The notes under the pieces are model-generated. The model had not been told where the DNA came from, did no database searches, and saw only the letters and a list, made by a program, of their open reading frames with translations. The translations under genes were made by a program, and so were the position numbers. This document shows, piece after piece, positions 35,794-44,415 of a DNA stretch of 60,056 nt (position 1 is its first letter; each line of letters opens with the position of its first letter). Source of the DNA: an uncultured Desulfobulbia bacterium (GTDB lineage: Bacteria; Desulfobacterota; Desulfobulbia; Desulfobulbales; CG2-30-60-27); NCBI GenBank assembly GCA_964443295.1, contig CAYUCH010000003.1, positions 1 to 60,056 on the forward strand. Reading direction: 5' to 3'.

Positions 35794-37479
35794 CTAATCC
35801 CTGGTGAGGTGTCGATATTTGATGCGATGGGGCCGTTCCGCCTCAGCACCAAGTCGTTGACGCCGGTCTTCTTCATATTCGGAATAATTTCCATCAAAAT
35901 ACACGACCTTCGAATCCCCTTCAAAGGCAAGAATATGGGTGGCAAGTCGATCCAGGAACCAACGGTCATGGCTAATTACCACAGCGCACCCAGCGAAATT
36001 TTCCAAGGCTTCTTCAAGGGCTCGCAACGTATTTACATCAAGATCATTGGTGGGCTCATCCAGCAAAAGAACATTGGCACCTTCCTTAAGCATCCGGGCC
36101 AAATGCACTCTATTGCGTTGACCACCTGAAAGATTACCCACCTTTACCTGTTGATCCTGCCCTGAAAAATTGAACCTGCCCACATAAGCGCGGGAGTTGA
36201 CTTCACGTTGCCCCAGCTGAATGGTATCCAGGCCATCTGAAATGGTTTCCCAAATAGTTTTCTCCGGATCCAGGGAATCGCGACTTTGGTCCACATAGGC
36301 AAGTTTAACAGTATCGCCAATCCGGATAGATCCTCCATTGGGTGTATCTTGGCCGGTAATCATCCTGAACAAAGTTGTCTTGCCGGCGCCGTTAGGACCA
36401 ATAACCCCGACGATCCCGCCCGGTGGCAATGAAAATGTCATATCATCCACCAGAATACGGTCATCAAACCCCTTGCGCACTCCATCTGTCTCGATCACCA
36501 CATCACCCAACCGTGGCCCGGGGGGGATAAAAATTTCAAGATCCTTGGCATGCTTTTCACTATCTTCCGCCAGGAGTTTTTCATAGGCGGTGATTCGTGC
36601 CTTTGATTTGGCATGCTTTGCCTTGGGTGTCATACGGATCCAATCCAGCTCACGGGCCAGGGTCTTTTGACGTTCGCTTTCCTGTTTTTCTTCATGATGC
36701 AGCCGTTTTTTCTTCTGCTCAAGCCAGGATGAATAATTCCCCTTCCACGGAATACCACGCCCCCGATCCAGTTCAAGAATCCAGCCTGCCACATTATCGA
36801 GAAAATAACGATCATGGGTGACGGCAATGACGGTACCCCCATATCTCTGCAAATGATGCTCTAACCAGGCTACTGTTTCCGCATCCAAGTGGTTGGTGGG
36901 CTCATCAAGGAGAAGAATATCAGGCTTACGAAGAAGGAGGCGACACAGGGCAACCCGGCGTCGTTCACCACCGGAAAGGACATTGACCATGGTATCTTCA
37001 GGTGGACATCGTAGAGCATCCATGGCCATATCAAGACGTGAATCCAAATCCCAGGCATCAAGGGCGTCAAGCTTGGCTTGCACCTTGCCCTGTTTCTCAA
37101 TGAGGGCATTCATGGCATCGTCATCCATGGGTTCTGCGAATGCATTGTTGATCTGGTCGAATTCGGCCAGCAGGTCCACAGTCTCCTGTACACCTTCCTC
37201 CACCACTTGCCGCACTGTTTTGTCACTATCGACCAAAGGTTCCTGCTCAAGCATCCCAATGGTATATCCAGGTGAGAGGTGAATTTCACCATTGAATTCC
37301 TTGTCTACACCAGCCAAAATATTCAGCAAGGAACTCTTACCCGAGCCGTTCAAGCCCAATACGCCGATTTTTGCGCCATAAAAATAAGAAAGGCTGATGT
37401 CCTGTAACACTTGCTTTTTATTAAAAAACTTGCTCACCTTAAGCATCGAATAAATGATCTTATTAGGCTCGTCACTCAT
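35794..37479 (-). CDS. ettA: Energy-dependent translational throttle EttA (ABC-F)
   Basis: Two ABC domains, ISLSYFYGAKIGVLG, GIPWKGNYSSWLEQK. Confidence 0.96.
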   Translation of the reverse strand: MSDEPNKIIYSMLKVSKFFNKKQVLQDISLSYFYGAKIGVLGLNGSGKSSLLNILAGVDKEFNGEIHLSPGYTIGMLEQEPLVDSDKTVRQVVEEGVQETVDLLAEFDQINNAFAEPMDDDAMNALIEKQGKVQAKLDALDAWDLDSRLDMAMDALRCPPEDTMVNVLSGGERRRVALCRLLLRKPDILLLDEPTNHLDAETVAWLEHHLQRYGGTVIAVTHDRYFLDNVAGWILELDRGRGIPWKGNYSSWLEQKKKRLHHEEKQESERQKTLARELDWIRMTPKAKHAKSKARITAYEKLLAEDSEKHAKDLEIFIPPGPRLGDVVIETDGVRKGFDDRILVDDMTFSLPPGGIVGVIGPNGAGKTTLFRMITGQDTPNGGSIRIGDTVKLAYVDQSRDSLDPEKTIWETISDGLDTIQLGQREVNSRAYVGRFNFSGQDQQVKVGNLSGGQRNRVHLARMLKEGANVLLLDEPTNDLDVNTLRALEEALENFAGCAVVISHDRWFLDRLATHILAFEGDSKVVYFDGNYSEYEEDRRQRLGAEAERPHRIKYRHLTRD

Positions 37480-37612: not shown

Positions 37613-40480
37613 CTATGGCCTGACCACCGCACCATCATTCGATGTATCGCCATCATTTTGTAAGTACTCTGCTGCATCAGGGTAATTTGCAAAATCGATT
37701 GTACCGGTTAAGTCATTATGATCCAGCCAATCAATGGCATCAAATACCAATCGTTTGGCATACCTGCTGTTGTGGACATATGCCCCTGGCTCTTGAGAAA
37801 TAAGAATATAATTGAAGGCAGCTCCCATATTATTTTGGCCATTGCCTTCGTCTTCTTCGTCCGGCTCCCAATTGATAATACGGTTATCAAAAGAATTATC
37901 CGTACTGCGGAAAAAATATGGCCATTTGGGCGAATAAATAAATCCAGTGCTTTCTAACTCTTCAAGCAATACATCAAGAAGAGCATTCAGACCATTTTTT
38001 TGAAAATTTAAAAAGGCTACAAATTCACTTTCAGTCCCGGCATGACAGTCCAAACATTTCTCGCTCTCGATCCCCACCACCGTTTCATTTTCTTTTTCCA
38101 CAGCCAGAAAAGAATGATCATCAGCCCCTGGTGAAGACATATGGCAACCAATGCAAGGCCCCATGCCATCATCAGTATCATCAATTTCATGATGTTTGTA
38201 ATGGGAAGGATTGGCATAATCCTGGTTTTCAAATTCATAACCTATTTTTTTATACACCAAGCCACCGGCAGGAAGGTAATGGGCATGGATAAAATCCTTA
38301 TTTTCGAAGGCTTTATTGCTAGCATCGGCCTCCTTGATCACTGCCCCACTCTCAATACCGATATGGCAAACAAGGCACATGTTTGACTTTTTGGCATCGG
38401 GATAAGCAACTACATTTGGAGTGCTATAAGGAGCCAGGATATCTGCGTCATTAGGGATTACATTCAATCCATCATTTTCATTAGGATTATTTGAATGACA
38501 GGTAGAGCAGTATAGCACCTGATTTTCACCCGGGAGAAGATCAAAAGTATTGTCGTCCGGATCATAGGTCGTTGGAGCCGCCAAATAATTTTTTGCTCCT
38601 GTCGCTGTATGACAGCGTTGACACTCTTTATATTCCGCAGCGCCGTCCCAATCTCTTTGACTCCAGGCCTCACTGTCTTCGTTGCCATGGCCTGATTTGG
38701 CCCAGGCCAGCACTTGTTCCGTCCCTGATTCAGCCCTGGCCATCTCGCCTTCTTCAACTTCATAATGACACTCATTACATGCATTGGGGAGGTCTAGTAA
38801 GCTCAAATCAGACTCCACTTGATCGTCGGCTAAATCTTCAAAATCAACATCCATTTCATTTTTTGAAGGCCAGATGACACGGAATGTGTGTGAGCTGATA
38901 TCACCCAAACCATTTTCGTCGCGCACTGCACTTTGGCCAGTCTTGGGCATATGGCATCCTGTACATCGCCCCTGACCAGTCCCACCAGGATCATATACCA
39001 CTCCCTCTCCTGCCATACCCACTCGACTCATATGAGCCTCAACAGCATCTTTGGCATTGGCGACACCCACCTCGTCCGCCGTGAGCTCAGCGAAGTCTCC
39101 CTCCCTCCCTGCGTGACAAGCGAGACAGAGGGTATTGTTATCTTTTTCATTCGTGGGGATACCGTTTATTGAAGTGGTCACCAGGTGTTCTTTGGGATCA
39201 TCGTCAAGGGAGTGCATATCATGGCAGATAAAACATTCATAATCATCTGTTGTGTCCGGTGCATGGGGGCTGAAGCCAAAATCAAGTTGGTGCTGCTGAT
39301 GATTCTTTGAAGCAATAAAACCGGAAAAACCTTTGCTTGCTAATGAATTGTTGGTGTTAGGGTGACTCCATACGTTGTCGCCAACAACTATCACTTTAAA
39401 ATAAAGTTGCCAATTTAAACCTGGAATGAAAAATAACGGCTCGCCATCCGCATCAACCTTGCTTGGATAAGCGGAAAAATCGGTGTTATCTAACTCATTT
39501 GGATAACGGTAATAGCCTTCTCCGAATGAATGGCATGAGAGACAAACCATATTACGAACATTCAGTTGATCGATTTCATTTACGACTCCATCGACATTAA
39601 GATCATTGTCAATGGCCTCATCAGCATCATTGGCAACCTTACCCTGAAATATCATGGTGGCAGGATTGATGATATTTTCTTTCAAAGGCAAAAGAACATG
39701 GCGTTGTCCGGGTCCATGACAGGCTTCACAGGTTACACCTGAATCCACATACTCCATGGCCCACTCCCCTTCATCGCTCACTTCAATCTGCAAGCCAGTT
39801 ACATGGCAACCGGCACAGAGCCGTTCAAAGGATCGGCTGAGCCCGATTTCCTGTGGAACATTTTCCTTGTCATACCACCCCTGTTCCTTCGAATCTATTT
39901 CTTGCGTATCATCTTCGAAATCAAACTGCTCATCCTCTGGCGTGTAGTTCACATACTCTTTAGTTTTAGCGTTATACTGAACGGGAAGAACATAATGGCT
40001 ATTGCCGATTTTGGTGAGATAAAGCTGCTTCCACTGTTCATTGAAGCCGCCCACCGTATGGCTTATGTAGTATTTCTTGTCACCGATTTCCATATATGGT
40101 CCGGACTGATCACTGCCGAGCTTAGGAGCATCTTCATCATATTTAGAAAAATCATCATCGCCTTTTAATTCCAACCCCCCGACATCAAAAAAATCCGGCC
40201 GGCCGGAATCGTCGGAGTCATTAATATAACTTGCCTCCAGACTACCGTCCCTTAGGGTCTGAGCATGGGCAGTGGTTAGCCAGCTTTCATGAATATCTCC
40301 ATGGCATTCAAGACATTTTGCTTCACCCACATAGGCCGTGGACCGGAGCTCCTCTTCCGGAGTTTGAGGAGGAGTATCATATCCGTCACTGTTCTGGTTG
40401 CTGCTGCAGCCAGTCAGCATGAAAAAAAATAAAGTAGTGACAACACTTGTCACTCCTATTGAATTTAAATATCTATTCAT
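37613..40480 (-). CDS. Outer-surface multiheme cytochrome c lipoprotein (13 CxxCH), OmcB-like C-terminal half
   Basis: Lipobox LTGC; 13 CxxCH counted; WAKSGH, CQRCHTATG, NMGAAFN..PGAYVHN..YAKRLVFDAIDW; ATG at 40480. Confidence 0.9.
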   Translation of the reverse strand: MNRYLNSIGVTSVVTTLFFFMLTGCSSNQNSDGYDTPPQTPEEELRSTAYVGEAKCLECHGDIHESWLTTAHAQTLRDGSLEASYINDSDDSGRPDFFDVGGLELKGDDDFSKYDEDAPKLGSDQSGPYMEIGDKKYYISHTVGGFNEQWKQLYLTKIGNSHYVLPVQYNAKTKEYVNYTPEDEQFDFEDDTQEIDSKEQGWYDKENVPQEIGLSRSFERLCAGCHVTGLQIEVSDEGEWAMEYVDSGVTCEACHGPGQRHVLLPLKENIINPATMIFQGKVANDADEAIDNDLNVDGVVNEIDQLNVRNMVCLSCHSFGEGYYRYPNELDNTDFSAYPSKVDADGEPLFFIPGLNWQLYFKVIVVGDNVWSHPNTNNSLASKGFSGFIASKNHQQHQLDFGFSPHAPDTTDDYECFICHDMHSLDDDPKEHLVTTSINGIPTNEKDNNTLCLACHAGREGDFAELTADEVGVANAKDAVEAHMSRVGMAGEGVVYDPGGTGQGRCTGCHMPKTGQSAVRDENGLGDISSHTFRVIWPSKNEMDVDFEDLADDQVESDLSLLDLPNACNECHYEVEEGEMARAESGTEQVLAWAKSGHGNEDSEAWSQRDWDGAAEYKECQRCHTATGAKNYLAAPTTYDPDDNTFDLLPGENQVLYCSTCHSNNPNENDGLNVIPNDADILAPYSTPNVVAYPDAKKSNMCLVCHIGIESGAVIKEADASNKAFENKDFIHAHYLPAGGLVYKKIGYEFENQDYANPSHYKHHEIDDTDDGMGPCIGCHMSSPGADDHSFLAVEKENETVVGIESEKCLDCHAGTESEFVAFLNFQKNGLNALLDVLLEELESTGFIYSPKWPYFFRSTDNSFDNRIINWEPDEEDEGNGQNNMGAAFNYILISQEPGAYVHNSRYAKRLVFDAIDWLDHNDLTGTIDFANYPDAAEYLQNDGDTSNDGAVVRP

Positions 40481-40518
40481 ATCTTCCGGTTTCCACCTTT
40501 TCTCTTCGTTCTTCCCTA

Positions 40519-41361
40519 TCAATGACATCTTCGGCAGGTCCGACCGCTACTCGCCTTTTCCAGTCGGCCTTTGATCTTATCCCAATTATCAGGGTGAGGA
40601 TTAATCCGCATACCGCTCACCGCACTATGGCATTGCAGGCACATGTCACCATCAGGGTGGCAGGCCTGGCAGGTGACTAAATTTTTTCGGGCTTCACGAG
40701 CGTGCCCTGTACCCCATTCATCATTATGGGCCACAGAACTATCTGGGTGACAATTTTCACAAGACTCCCGATCAATAATTCCCAATTTAGCATGGACCTC
40801 TTCTACCTCAAGATCAGTGGTAGAACTCCATCCTCTACGGTGGGAAAAAAGAGCCAACTCTTCCGGCGCAAACCGGTCGTGACAATCCAGGCAAAAACGT
40901 TGCTCGTGGCACTGTGAACATTTTTGTGGATCAGTGCGAGCCGCCACGGGATGACTTACCGTAAAGTCACCATTATGAATGTTGGCCATGGTATTGCTGA
41001 AAGCCCCCATCTCATCGGCAAAGCCAGCCACATGACACTCCAGACAATCGGCCTGCTCATGACAATTTTCACAATCAATGACCTTCGCCCGGACCTCGGT
41101 CTGATGGTTTAATGCCCAAAGAGGGCCATGGGTGGCAGGAGAGACAAAAGAAACCGCATCAATCTTCTCTTTATCATCATGACATTCCATACAGACAATT
41201 TTTTCGGGCACAATGGACATGGCATCTGTTCGATGACAGATGGCACAGGATTTCTCCTTGGCAAATTCCGCCACATGGCGCCCATGGTCAAACGACACGG
41301 CCCAAACCGATGGCACCCATGCGCAAATCATGGCGAATACACATATAAAATAACGAATCAT
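40519..41361 (-). CDS. Periplasmic multiheme cytochrome c (10 CxxCH), OmaB-like
   Basis: Signal peptide, 10 CxxCH counted in 280 aa, ends in CRRCH. Confidence 0.92.
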   Translation of the reverse strand: MIRYFICVFAMICAWVPSVWAVSFDHGRHVAEFAKEKSCAICHRTDAMSIVPEKIVCMECHDDKEKIDAVSFVSPATHGPLWALNHQTEVRAKVIDCENCHEQADCLECHVAGFADEMGAFSNTMANIHNGDFTVSHPVAARTDPQKCSQCHEQRFCLDCHDRFAPEELALFSHRRGWSSTTDLEVEEVHAKLGIIDRESCENCHPDSSVAHNDEWGTGHAREARKNLVTCQACHPDGDMCLQCHSAVSGMRINPHPDNWDKIKGRLEKASSGRTCRRCH

Positions 41362-41501
41362 CTCGCCATCCCCCTAACCCACTAAAGTGGAAAAAACATC
41401 AGGTTTTTAGGATAAATCCCTTAACAGTAGGTGCAAGTTGTTTATTTCAAAGAAGTTTTTGAAAATCTTGCCACAAATAAAACGTAAAAATGCATAAGGG
41501 A

Positions 41502-42731
41502 CTAAAATTTCACATTAAACCGAAGACGACCACGGAATGAAGATCCATAAACTTCATCCTCCAGTCGTTCCAGCTTAAATTGCAGGTTCATTTTTTTATT
41601 CAGATAAAAACTCGTATCAAACCAATACCGGCCACTGGTGAGTTCATCATTTTCATCATCAAGCCGTCTTTCGATGACATTATAGTGGGCTCCGACCCCG
41701 ACGTTAAGATACCGTTGCACCAGATATCCTACATGAAATTTCACCCCTTCTTCATTCTGCCCATCATCATCGTCACGAATCTCCACGCTGAGATAGCCGG
41801 AAATCCGTTTAGTTCTGGTTCTGATTTTTTCAATTCCCATTTCATAGACATTGGCGTCATCATAATCCTTATATAACTCTCTTGTATACCGGCCGAAAGC
41901 CTGCAAACCCTGGTCAAGTTTATAAGTCGCTTCTGCCATCACCTCCTCATATTCCGAGGTGTCAAAGGCAGAGTAAATACTGTTGGCAGAAAATATCGGA
42001 ATAGAATGAATATACTCGGCACGTAGGCTCCAATGGGGATTCCCATGGAATTTCAACCCGGCGAGGATTTCGGAGAACTCAGCTTTAAGCCAATTATATT
42101 GAAGGTCGGTATACACATGAAGGTGGCCTGGGATACGATAATCGAGATTACCACCAAATATCTCGTAGGTCATATCACCACTATTCCATTTCTGGACAGT
42201 GGAAAGCCCAATGTTGAAATTTTCATACACTTCACTTGTGGCCTCAAGACCGAGAATCAAGTCTTGCTCCTGATAATCGCTGTAATAACCCAGATCCCCT
42301 CCACCGAAAAATGTAAACTTAATTCGTTTGCCAAGTCCATCATAGGGAGCTTTGAGTACTATACCATCTAAAAGGGACGCTCCTGCCGCAGAGGAAATGA
42401 ATTGCCGGCCAAGCCTTACATCAAGGTTATCTTTTATAAAATCCCTTTTTTCGATATAGGCATAATAGAGACGACTCTCAACGTCGTCCTCATTGGCAAG
42501 ATCTTTTGCCAAGCGACCATAGCTACGAAAACTATAGCCCTTTTCGGCAATATCCCTGATATTCAAATTGAGATACTGGTAGAAAGGGACCGCTGTTTCG
42601 CCCAAAACATTTTCATAAAATTCCAAAGCCGTACTAGCTTTGCCGGAAACAGTGGTTGCCAAAGAACCTTTGGCAGGAAGAAAGATCAAAAGCATACTTA
42701 TAAAGGAAAGCAGCCTCTTGGAAATTTTCAT
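41502..42731 (-). CDS. Outer-membrane beta-barrel (OmbB-like porin of a porin-cytochrome complex)
   Basis: Signal peptide from ATG 42731, alternating amphipathic strands, VRLGRQF motif, C-terminal Phe (RLRFNVKF); first gene before two multiheme genes. Confidence 0.82.
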   Translation of the reverse strand: MKISKRLLSFISMLLIFLPAKGSLATTVSGKASTALEFYENVLGETAVPFYQYLNLNIRDIAEKGYSFRSYGRLAKDLANEDDVESRLYYAYIEKRDFIKDNLDVRLGRQFISSAAGASLLDGIVLKAPYDGLGKRIKFTFFGGGDLGYYSDYQEQDLILGLEATSEVYENFNIGLSTVQKWNSGDMTYEIFGGNLDYRIPGHLHVYTDLQYNWLKAEFSEILAGLKFHGNPHWSLRAEYIHSIPIFSANSIYSAFDTSEYEEVMAEATYKLDQGLQAFGRYTRELYKDYDDANVYEMGIEKIRTRTKRISGYLSVEIRDDDDGQNEEGVKFHVGYLVQRYLNVGVGAHYNVIERRLDDENDELTSGRYWFDTSFYLNKKMNLQFKLERLEDEVYGSSFRGRLRFNVKF

Positions 42732-42960
42732 GCGGTTTTCTTCCAACAATTCGATACCTCTCATTATAACTCTCCTGGGACGCATCCCAAGTAGAGACAA
42801 AATATAATCTAATCCAGATAAACCAGGATTTTTAAAGGTCCTGCATAAGTGCCTTAACAGCTTTATGATAGTATTTACGAATTTTTCACCATTTTGCTTC
42901 ATACAATAAAAATAAATAACATTCACAAAGGCACTAAAATGGATCGCAACGTAGCAGGAC

Positions 42961-43185: not shown

Positions 43186-44415
43186 TTAACTGGCTACTTG
43201 ATTTCTACCACGTTTCTTAGCCCGATAAAGTGCCTTGTCTGCCGATTTTATTACTTTTTGAGGCTTCATTTGTCGACCTGTCGGCTCTGAAACCCCAATG
43301 CTGACGGTGACACCAACTTTTTTTGAAGCCTTACGCCCACCCCGTGTTTTTTTAGGTTTTTTCTTCGGGCGTCCCTGTCCACGCAGTGAAAATCCAGAAG
43401 TTTGAATTACCAGTCGTAATTGTTCGAGATGGGGCAAGACCTCTTCTTTGGCGGCACCTGGAAACAGTAAAGTAAATTCCTCGCCTCCATAGCGATAGGC
43501 CCGGCCGCCTCCCGTCACCTTAGCCAGTTTGCCAGCCACCATCCGTAGCACCTGATCTCCAACTTCATGGCCATATGTATCATTAAACTTTTTAAAAAAA
43601 TCGATATCCACCATGGCCACAGTATATGTCGAGCCCAGCTTGAGGAGATCTTCATTCAAGGCTCGTCGTGCCGGCAAGCCGGTCAACTCATCTCTGAAAG
43701 CCATTTTATACGCTTCTTCAAGAGCAGCTATGATAAGAATCAAACCGGCACAGGAAAAAAACAACGTTGCATTCACGGGGCTTTGCCAGGGCAACAAGGC
43801 TGTACACCCAGCAACCAGGGCCCAAAAAAAACCATAATCAATGACTCCCTGTCTTTTCAGCGAGGCACCTATAAATAGAAGGGAGACAAAGAAAAAAAGA
43901 AAAACGGGAATTTCTGTAAATGGCACCCACTCGGGAAGAGAAAATGTGATAAAAGAGCGGGAAAAAAAGGCGACCAACTCATCTTGCTTTGAGCGAAACA
44001 GAAGAAAAACGGCCAGAGGTTGCAAGGTGATAAAAACTAAGCGCCACAGCCCATGGATAGTTGCCAGTCCTCTCTCTTTAAGGAGGAAAATATATGCCAG
44101 ATTCAATGGCAACAAGGTTGCCACACTATTCAAAACAATCCAGACTGGTTCACCAACCTCGGCAGATGAAGCAGGAAAACCTGCCAAAAAGCGATCTGCA
44201 ACAAAAAAAGCCCCAACCCCATAAACCAATCTACTTCGATTAAACCGCCATCCTAATAGACCGCCAACCGCAAGCACTGCATAGGGTGCAATGGCTGTGA
44301 TGCCTGGGACCATGGGCGTTAATCGAGAGGCAAAGACAAAGGCCAACCCCACGCTGAACAGCAGGCCACCCGGCAAAAAAAACCATAAAAATGCCCTGAT
44401 AACAGTCCAACCCAT
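43186..44415 (-). CDS. Membrane-bound diguanylate cyclase
   Basis: Multiple TM helices, DELTGL, DIDFFKKFNDTYGH..GD, RYGGEEF. Confidence 0.93.
   Translation of the reverse strand: MGWTVIRAFLWFFLPGGLLFSVGLAFVFASRLTPMVPGITAIAPYAVLAVGGLLGWRFNRSRLVYGVGAFFVADRFLAGFPASSAEVGEPVWIVLNSVATLLPLNLAYIFLLKERGLATIHGLWRLVFITLQPLAVFLLFRSKQDELVAFFSRSFITFSLPEWVPFTEIPVFLFFFVSLLFIGASLKRQGVIDYGFFWALVAGCTALLPWQSPVNATLFFSCAGLILIIAALEEAYKMAFRDELTGLPARRALNEDLLKLGSTYTVAMVDIDFFKKFNDTYGHEVGDQVLRMVAGKLAKVTGGGRAYRYGGEEFTLLFPGAAKEEVLPHLEQLRLVIQTSGFSLRGQGRPKKKPKKTRGGRKASKKVGVTVSIGVSEPTGRQMKPQKVIKSADKALYRAKKRGRNQVAS

What the first reader, a model, noticed from the sequence alone, without database searches (positions are those of the whole stretch)
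37613..42731. Complete porin-cytochrome (Omb-Oma-Omc-like) electron conduit in a Desulfobulbales-like genome
Seen: three co-oriented genes encoding a ~409-aa beta-barrel ending in Phe, a 10-CxxCH periplasmic cytochrome and a 13-CxxCH lipoprotein, 23 heme motifs in total. Known: this order matches Geobacter ombB-omaB-omcB trans-outer-membrane conduits used for Fe(III)/electrode reduction. Inference: this organism can move electrons across its outer membrane, to minerals or to/from a syntrophic partner. Heme counts exceed those I recall for OmaB (8) and OmcB (12), suggesting a distinct subfamily.
Basis: partly seen in the sequence, partly recalled or inferred. Interest (0 to 1): 0.75.

Follow-up and report, generated by a model that had tools for sequence, protein, structure and literature searches.

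The report
Group II porin-cytochrome electron conduit
Three adjacent genes encode a predicted 22-strand outer-membrane barrel, a cytochrome with 10 heme-binding motifs and a predicted lipoprotein with 13, which together likely carry respiratory electrons out of the cell; the same 22/10/13 layout was listed for Desulfuromonas acetoxidans in 2014, so this is a new member of a known family, unusual only in an OcwA-like front half of its lipoprotein.

Summary
In detail: barrel (409 aa, ends in Phe, 22 predicted strands), 10-CxxCH cytochrome and 13-CxxCH lipoprotein, in that order on the minus strand. The host is Desulfobulbales-like (AspS 78% to Desulfurivibrio dismutans). Barrel and decaheme are homologous to OmbB/OmaB-type proteins and closest to Pcc Group II.

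The 'distinct subfamily' claim is not new. Liu 2014 Table S2 lists D. acetoxidans as 22/10/13 and Desulfurivibrio alkaliphilus as 20/10/8. In related loci, 70 of 72 complete second genes have 10 motifs and 29 of 53 complete third genes have 13.

One minority feature: the lipoprotein joins an OcwA/c554-like 8-heme front module to the common NrfA-like 5-heme back module. Only 6 of 53 third genes do this. Same-family genomes carry the ordinary form; in G002 both flanking genes match. An AU test rejects one clade for these proteins' back modules (p=0.002).

Complex formation has only weak predicted support. Direction and acceptor are untested. The scan noted similar clusters on other DNA (e1-2414009, e1-1925616).

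The parts
41502..42731 (-). Pcc porin (OmbB homologue, Group II), 409 aa; predicted 22-strand plug-less beta-barrel ending in Phe; alternative start at 42764 (420 aa)
   Evidence: pLDDT 87, 22 strands; best matches are large OM barrels incl. TonB-receptor barrels, Z 18-19, rmsd 4.2-5.6 A, 326-340 residues; about 40-50% to Desulfuromonadales/Desulfobulbales barrels; 26-29% to barrels beside octahemes
41362..41501 (-). 140-bp spacer between barrel and decaheme, longer than the 13-20 bp seen in most related loci; no function assigned
   Evidence: promoter/terminator scan of the region at chance level
40519..41361 (-). Periplasmic decaheme cytochrome (OmaB homologue), 280 aa; 8 motifs shared with OmaB-type octahemes plus two extra (Cys39 N-terminal, Cys201 in an internal insertion)
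   Evidence: Pfam c7; all 10 CxxCH invariant in 120 rows
37613..40480 (-). 13-heme lipoprotein cytochrome in the OmcB position, 955 aa, lipobox LTGC-SS, acidic (computed pI 4.3)
38741..40345 (-). Front module of the lipoprotein (residues 46-580), 8 hemes, OcwA/c554-like; heme at Cys222 (CAGCH) aligns with OcwA's five-coordinate heme 2
   Evidence: profile vs 6I5B E 3e-37; Foldseek top hits OcwA, OmhA
37706..38725 (-). Back module of the lipoprotein (residues 586-925), 5 hemes plus C-terminal helices, NrfA-like; shared by 42 of 53 complete third genes and by a 12-heme third gene beside an octaheme
   Evidence: NrfA/ONR hits at profile positions about 536-880; helices 817-844, 880-896, 905-921
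43186..44415 (-). Upstream membrane GGDEF gene; conserved flank in same-family genomes G001 and G002; no functional link shown
35794..37479 (-). Downstream ABC-F (EttA-like; name from my own knowledge) gene; conserved flank in G002

Best explanation
The three genes encode a Group II porin-cytochrome (Pcc) set whose products likely assemble into a 23-heme wire across the outer membrane, most likely carrying respiratory electrons outward to insoluble acceptors such as Fe(III) oxides. Shown: gene order, motif counts, homology to OmbB/OmaB-type proteins, and a predicted empty 22-strand barrel. Inferred: the decaheme inserts into the barrel from the periplasm and takes electrons from periplasmic and inner-membrane cytochromes. 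The Lol-sorted lipoprotein would sit on the outer face and pass electrons to minerals directly or through the genome's OmcS-like cytochromes. The barrel and the locus are inherited within the host family. The lipoprotein's front module has likely been exchanged for an OcwA/c554-like octaheme, which could supply an open (five-coordinate) heme site.
For: Barrel model with 22 strands and no plug, within the published Pcc range of 18-22. The barrel is 26-29% identical to barrels that sit beside octahemes. One of these (L116) matches by eye the OmbB sequence printed in Liu 2014 Fig. S2. Four of the fetched octahemes hold the published OmaB antibody peptide, and their 8 CxxCH align with 8 of the window's 10. 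A Desulfurivibrio dismutans barrel is 40% and its decaheme 40% identical (L087). Shi 2014 gives D. alkaliphilus barrel vs OmbB 28% and vs D. acetoxidans 47%, the same two tiers. Order conserved: 75 of 80 named loci have a decaheme homologue next to the barrel. Geobacter Pcc moved electrons across liposomes to ferrihydrite. D. alkaliphilus reduces ferrihydrite. The genome has LolA, GspD, four OmcS-like paralogues, dsrA and aprA. Barrel plus decaheme prediction: ipSAE 0.52 against a best control of 0.00, with runs agreeing in at least 74% of contacts and partner pLDDT at least 57. This is weak support only: the mark was reached by 116 of 157 solved and 2 of 215 mismatched pairs, but at 0.60 or under by 18 of the 157 and by both mismatches.
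Against: No expression, localisation or growth data exist for this organism. The complex score is weak. No Pcc structure was found in the PDB by sequence. The lipoprotein model is poor (pLDDT 60.7; TM to OcwA only 0.39-0.40, rmsd 11 A). Shi 2014 noted Pcc clusters in organisms then thought unable to reduce metal oxides and proposed S0 or Se acceptors. In D. alkaliphilus the most induced cytochrome on ferrihydrite was an OmcS homologue, not the Pcc. A second large cytochrome cluster on contig C40 could do this job instead. G. sulfurreducens OmcB and D. acetoxidans Dace_0364 were not compared directly.
Confidence: 0.72

Rival explanations
1. The same conduit works mainly inward or between cells: electron uptake from minerals, a cathode or a syntrophic partner, feeding sulfate reduction through Apr/Dsr.
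For: Heme wires are reversible (general knowledge). The genome has dsrA and aprA and OmcS-like proteins, a combination used by syntrophic sulfate reducers (Murali 2023).
Against: The conduit conserved in ANME partners is OetABI, a different family. This barrel family occurs mostly in Desulfuromonadales. Shi 2014 found no pcc in known Fe(II) oxidisers at that date.
Confidence: 0.12
2. The conduit feeds a surface enzyme rather than a mineral: the lipoprotein's OcwA/MccA-like and NrfA-like open hemes reduce a small substrate (S0/polysulfide, nitrite, hydroxylamine or similar) outside the cell.
For: Front module resembles OcwA, c554 and MccA; back module resembles NrfA. OcwA has two five-coordinate hemes with His-His pockets and reduces nitrite and hydroxylamine in vitro. 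In 16 family rows His734 is invariant, and His is present in 13 of 16 at each of positions 394 and 395. After setting those aside, 11 conserved His remain for the 11 other hemes (my count).
Against: OcwA's nitrite kcat is only 1 per min and it did not reduce sulfite; its main role is iron reduction. No CxxCK motif: all 13 are CxxCH. The window protein keeps only one His of the first pair (His394-Gln395) and has Ala733 before His734. Heme coordination was not modelled.
Confidence: 0.11
3. The genes do not form a trans-membrane wire: the lipoprotein faces the periplasm and the barrel has another role, or the cluster is a silent relic.
For: Complex support is weak. The barrel-decaheme spacer is unusually long, 140 bp.
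Against: All three frames are intact with conserved ligands. The order is conserved across about 75 loci and two orders. The homologous Geobacter trimer was shown biochemically.
Confidence: 0.05

Closest known systems
Pcc Group II clusters of Shi et al. 2014 (PMC4245776) / Liu et al. 2014 (PMC4282303): Desulfuromonas acetoxidans Dace_0362-0364, Desulfurivibrio alkaliphilus DaAHT2_2270-2272, Desulfurispirillum indicum Selin_2482-2480
   Same: Gene order; 20-22 strand barrel; 10-heme periplasmic cytochrome; D. acetoxidans has exactly 22/10/13. Congeners of these species give 40-50% barrel identity.
   Different: The lipoprotein is 955 aa with an OcwA-like front module, against about 720-800 aa with closely spaced front hemes in most related loci, or an 8-heme protein in Desulfurivibrio. 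The three type proteins themselves were not compared.
Geobacter sulfurreducens OmbB-OmaB-OmcB (Pcc Group I)
   Same: Homologous barrel and periplasmic cytochrome. The back module matches a 12-heme third gene beside an octaheme (L115: 228 bits, 31% identity).
   Different: Only 26-29% barrel identity; 10 versus 8 and 13 versus 12 hemes; no adjacent OrfR/S-type regulator seen (a GGDEF gene lies upstream); single copy.
OcwA (Thermincola potens, PDB 6I5B), OmhA (6QVM), MccA and NrfA superfamily
   Same: Best sequence and fold matches of the lipoprotein. Eight of OcwA's nine motifs have counterparts in the front module; the back module is NrfA-like with C-terminal helices.
   Different: 13 hemes in two modules, not 9. 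A lipoprotein of a Gram-negative porin-cytochrome operon, not a Gram-positive cell-wall protein. His-His pockets are only partly kept; fold similarity is weak on a poor model.
Shewanella MtrCAB
   Same: Works alike: barrel, periplasmic decaheme and surface lipoprotein cytochrome.
   Different: No MtrB/PioB or DmsE/MtrA model match for barrel or decaheme. 22 strands versus 28 predicted for MtrB. MtrB (6R2Q) ranks 40th, Z 14.1, rmsd 6.8 A, 315 aligned.

Membership tests
Pcc (Liu/Shi 2014) | Adjacent genes: porin, periplasmic multiheme cytochrome, outer-membrane multiheme cytochrome | tested here: met
   order conserved in related loci
Pcc (Liu/Shi 2014) | Porin-like barrel of 18-22 strands | tested here: met
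   22 strands in the AlphaFold2 model, pLDDT 87; aligns to large OM barrels
Pcc (Liu/Shi 2014) | Barrel homologous to OmbB | tested here: met
   Indirect: 29% (E 3e-46) to the L116 barrel, which matches the OmbB sequence printed in Liu 2014 Fig. S2 by eye; no computed alignment to OmbB itself
Pcc (Liu/Shi 2014) | Periplasmic cytochrome homologous to OmaB | tested here: met
   28-34% (E about 1e-25 to 1e-36) to octahemes; 8 CxxCH align; four of these octahemes carry the published OmaB peptide
Pcc (Liu/Shi 2014) | Third gene is an outer-membrane lipoprotein cytochrome, OmcB-like | tested here: inconclusive
   Lipobox with Ser at +2 and LolA in the genome; back module shared with a 12-heme third gene; OmcB itself not compared; front module is of another type
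Pcc (Liu/Shi 2014) | The three proteins form one complex that moves electrons across a bilayer | not testable with these tools
   Only a weak two-chain prediction, 0.52 against best control 0.00
Pcc Group II | 10-heme periplasmic cytochrome and barrel closer to Desulfurivibrio/Desulfuromonas than to Geobacter-type octaheme clusters | tested here: met
   40-50% versus 26-29%; published Group II members all have 10 hemes; tree with Desulfurivibrio and Desulfuromonadales rows
MtrCAB | MtrB/PioB-family barrel and MtrA/DmsE-family decaheme | tested here: not met
   NCBIfam gave 0 families for the barrel and no TIGR03508 hit for the decaheme at E<=0.1, though TIGR03508 does hit other cytochromes of this genome; 22 versus 28 predicted strands
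ExtABCD (GSU2645-2642; name-to-locus link recalled) | Barrel with 5-heme partner (Pcc Group V) plus a dodecaheme | tested here: inconclusive
   Barrels beside 5-heme cytochromes match only the N-terminal half (29% over 235 aa, L126); the Ext proteins themselves were not compared
OcwA/OmhA | Single nine-heme (c554 + NrfA) core | tested here: not met
   13 motifs in an 8+5 arrangement
OcwA/OmhA | Two five-coordinate hemes capped by His-His motifs | tested here: inconclusive
   One His of each putative pair kept (His394, His734); no heme in the model

The most novel reading that the evidence does not exclude
A recurring, apparently undescribed class of Pcc surface cytochrome: an OcwA/MccA-like octaheme grafted onto the NrfA-like back module of OmcB-type proteins, swapped in several times across Desulfobulbales and Desulfuromonadales. 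It would place two open catalytic-type hemes on the outer face of a Gram-negative porin-cytochrome wire, turning a mineral conduit into a surface enzyme for sulfur or nitrogen substrates in a dsr-bearing bacterium.
Probability: 0.25. Interest if true: 0.6.

Novelty: new member of a known kind. Interest (0 to 1): 0.3.

Why it matters
It adds an uncultured Desulfobulbales family to the dsr-plus-Pcc-plus-OmcS-like bacteria that are candidates for iron-oxide respiration, including sulfide oxidation coupled to iron reduction as shown for D. alkaliphilus (Chen 2025). The conduit is patchy: 9 of 201 sampled genomes of the class have a full-length barrel match. It also gives a clean case of surface-cytochrome module swapping at a fixed chromosomal locus, testable in a named isolate (Geothermobacter ehrlichii has a 42%-identical full-length homologue). 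The conduit itself, its heme counts and its presence in this order are already published, so the interest is modest.

Tried and rejected
Recent transfer of the whole cluster from Desulfuromonadales (my first idea, from named database hits) was rejected. The barrel groups with same-family genomes G001 and G002 (SH-aLRT 100, quick tree of 87 rows), the flanking genes are conserved, and GC3 is like neighbouring genes (0.41-0.46). Older transfers are not excluded: Desulfobulbales barrels are scattered in that tree, which I did not test.

'Distinct subfamily by heme count' was rejected. Mtr membership was rejected. The genome-wide MtrB search rang nowhere, controls included, so it shows nothing.

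PDB sequence searches found no solved relative of the barrel or decaheme family. Foldseek on the barrel gave only generic barrels. Promoter and terminator scans were at chance level (15 vs 12.0; 5 vs 5.7), and no convincing sigma-54 site was found upstream.

Sequencing runs: no RNA holder listed.

Naming distant barrels through cluster look-ups gave no Geobacter name in 20 tried. The protein atlas gave only generic cytochrome clusters for the back module; the barrel was not searched there. An internal duplication between the lipoprotein's second and third heme groups has only short support (hhalign 97% probability over 49 columns). DsrA identities (75-85% across five genomes) do not tell the direction of sulfur metabolism.
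Full report
Observation. The three ORFs are real and as described: barrel 42731-41502 (409 aa, terminal Phe), cytochrome 41361-40519 (280 aa, 10 CxxCH) and lipoprotein 40480-37613 (955 aa, 13 CxxCH, LTGC lipobox, Ser at +2), all on the minus strand. Shuffles gave at most 2 motifs in 2000 trials per protein. The barrel model (120-row alignment) has pLDDT 87.4, 22 strands and no plug. Its best structural matches are large outer-membrane barrels, mostly TonB-receptor barrels (Z 18-19, rmsd 4.2-5.6 A).

Host. The window's AspS is 78% identical to Desulfurivibrio dismutans and 76% to a Desulfobulbaceae MAG, against 61% to Geothermobacter and Desulfuromusa (5 genomes). The host is therefore Desulfobulbales-like. 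The genome (99.8% complete) has 46 ORFs with three or more CxxCH. It has dsrA and aprA above cut-off, LolA and GspD, and four paralogous OmcS-like proteins, one matching 6EF8 at E 1e-7.

Family. The barrel has 381 database relatives and the decaheme 464; the few named ones are mostly Desulfuromonadales at about 45-55%. Of 80 named loci fetched with the barrel alignment, 75 had a decaheme homologue beside the barrel. Of these, 72 were complete, and 70 of 72 had 10 motifs. Among 53 complete third genes, 29 had 13 motifs and 8 had 12.

Link to Geobacter. A phylum search (49 of 401 genomes matched) gave a second tier of barrels at 25-30% identity. Most of those fetched lie beside octahemes. One (L116) matches by eye the OmbB sequence in Liu 2014 Fig. 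S2, four octahemes hold the published OmaB peptide, and their 8 motifs align with 8 of the window's 10. The extra two are one N-terminal motif and one in an internal insertion. Mtr models do not match.

What is published. Liu 2014 (PMC4282303; passages and supplement text seen, 2 of 8 pages were images) lists D. acetoxidans as 22/10/13, D. alkaliphilus as 20/10/8 and D. indicum as 20/10/15. Shi 2014 (PMC4245776; parts 1-4 of 6 and supplement rows seen) puts these three in Group II. It gives ranges of 5-14 and 1-15 hemes and says the outer cytochrome does not co-evolve with the other two. Chen 2025 (PMC12545173; passages) reports OmaB-OmbB-OmcB homologues with OmcS and Dsr in Desulfurivibrionaceae, and ferrihydrite reduction by D. 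alkaliphilus. In the class it is patchy: 12 of 201 genomes match at E<=1e-20, 9 of them full length.

Inheritance. In a quick tree of 87 barrels (window, 5 database proteins, 81 of 89 loci; weak, partial and identical rows dropped), the window groups with G001 and G002 of its own family at support 100. Both have the same upstream GGDEF gene, and G002 also has the downstream ABC-F and LEA genes. The locus is thus inherited within the family.

The lipoprotein. A profile of 20 homologues hits OcwA (E 3e-37) and OmhA over the front part, and NrfA/ONR over the back part. Foldseek on a poor model (pLDDT 60.7) ranks OcwA first (E 4e-8, TM 0.39, rmsd 11.5 A). Eight OcwA motifs have counterparts in residues 46-580. 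The missing one is heme 5 or 6: HMMER gapped heme 6, while the CxxCHxxH pattern favours loss of heme 5, as in MccA (my reading; Costa 2019 passages; Soares 2022 passages). The back module is common (42 of 53 third genes). The OcwA-like front is not: 6 of 53 complete third genes plus one partial, and two more in the phylum sample. G001 and G002 have the ordinary front with closely spaced hemes.

Module swapping. On a tree of 65 back modules the OcwA-type label needs at least 4 changes. With two long-branch rows dropped, an AU test rejects a single clade (18 of 63 rows, p=0.0018, LG+G4). The label came from HMMs built on these same proteins before the tree was made. The simplest reading is repeated exchange or loss of the front module; direction needs a root. 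Conserved histidines fit two five-coordinate hemes (Cys222, Cys620), but the window keeps only one His of each pocket pair. This remains inference.

Is that variant in print? I did not find it in searches (10, 15 and 0 papers). Of the listed papers I read passages of PMC11492766, PMC7829351, PMC12545173, PMC13591261 and two Soares preprints (whose supplements I did not see and which may bear on this), plus the abstract and one section of PMC12133095. Partial precedent exists. Gavrilov 2021 notes OcwA relatives in Gram-negative bacteria and weak OmhA-OmcB homology, and Shi 2014 stresses the extreme diversity of this component. Subscription papers are not searched. Passages of PMC8465243 and PMC10553843 were also used.

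Mechanism. Likely route: quinol-linked inner-membrane cytochromes (NapC/NirT-domain and cytochrome-b clusters are present), then periplasmic carriers, then the decaheme seated in the barrel, then the surface lipoprotein, then a mineral or OmcS-like proteins. The barrel-decaheme prediction scored 0.52 against a best control of 0.00. That is weak: 116 of 157 solved and 2 of 215 mismatched pairs reach the mark, but only 18 solved pairs and both mismatches do so at 0.60 or under. Surface exposure, direction and acceptor are untested.

Verdict. A real, intact new member of Pcc Group II. The reading as a conduit is sound and the novelty claim from heme counts is not. The OcwA-like front module is a minor, testable twist. 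Interest 0.3.

Noticed in passing
L091 and L092 (G000 contig C40, 1-28908): A second, much larger cytochrome cluster: 26-, 16-, 14-, 10-, 9- and 7-motif cytochromes, three OmcS-like proteins, beta-propeller and PPIase genes and an unannotated 700-aa protein. It resembles the OetABI/OmcS cluster described by Murali 2023; homology was not tested.
   Followed up: partly
L099:372-2537 (-), G000 C17: An 11-CxxCH cytochrome fused to a C-terminal sulfurtransferase (rhodanese-like) region (NF008557, E 1e-23, below cut-off).
   Followed up: no
L106:229-2259 (-), G000 C131: A 13-motif protein above cut-off for the octaheme tetrathionate reductase family, with an extra c3-like part.
   Followed up: no
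G000:C26:11355-12626 (-): A molybdopterin oxidoreductase match with one in-frame TGA, possibly selenocysteine.
   Followed up: no
window 41362-41501 and 42764: A 140-bp spacer between barrel and decaheme (13-20 bp in most relatives), and an alternative barrel start with a good ribosome-binding site.
   Followed up: partly
window lipoprotein residues 88-96 and 293-301: Two DxDxDG-like, possibly calcium-binding, loops recur in the OcwA-type family.
   Followed up: no
L117:3126-7256 and L121:2142-5033: The OcwA-like front module also occurs in a 24-heme, about 1377-aa third gene behind an 11-heme partner, and in a 13-heme third gene behind an octaheme.
   Followed up: no
L124:2519-3367 (G001): In this same-family genome the second gene has only 7 motifs and matches only the first ~170 residues, possibly a frameshift or assembly error.
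   Followed up: no
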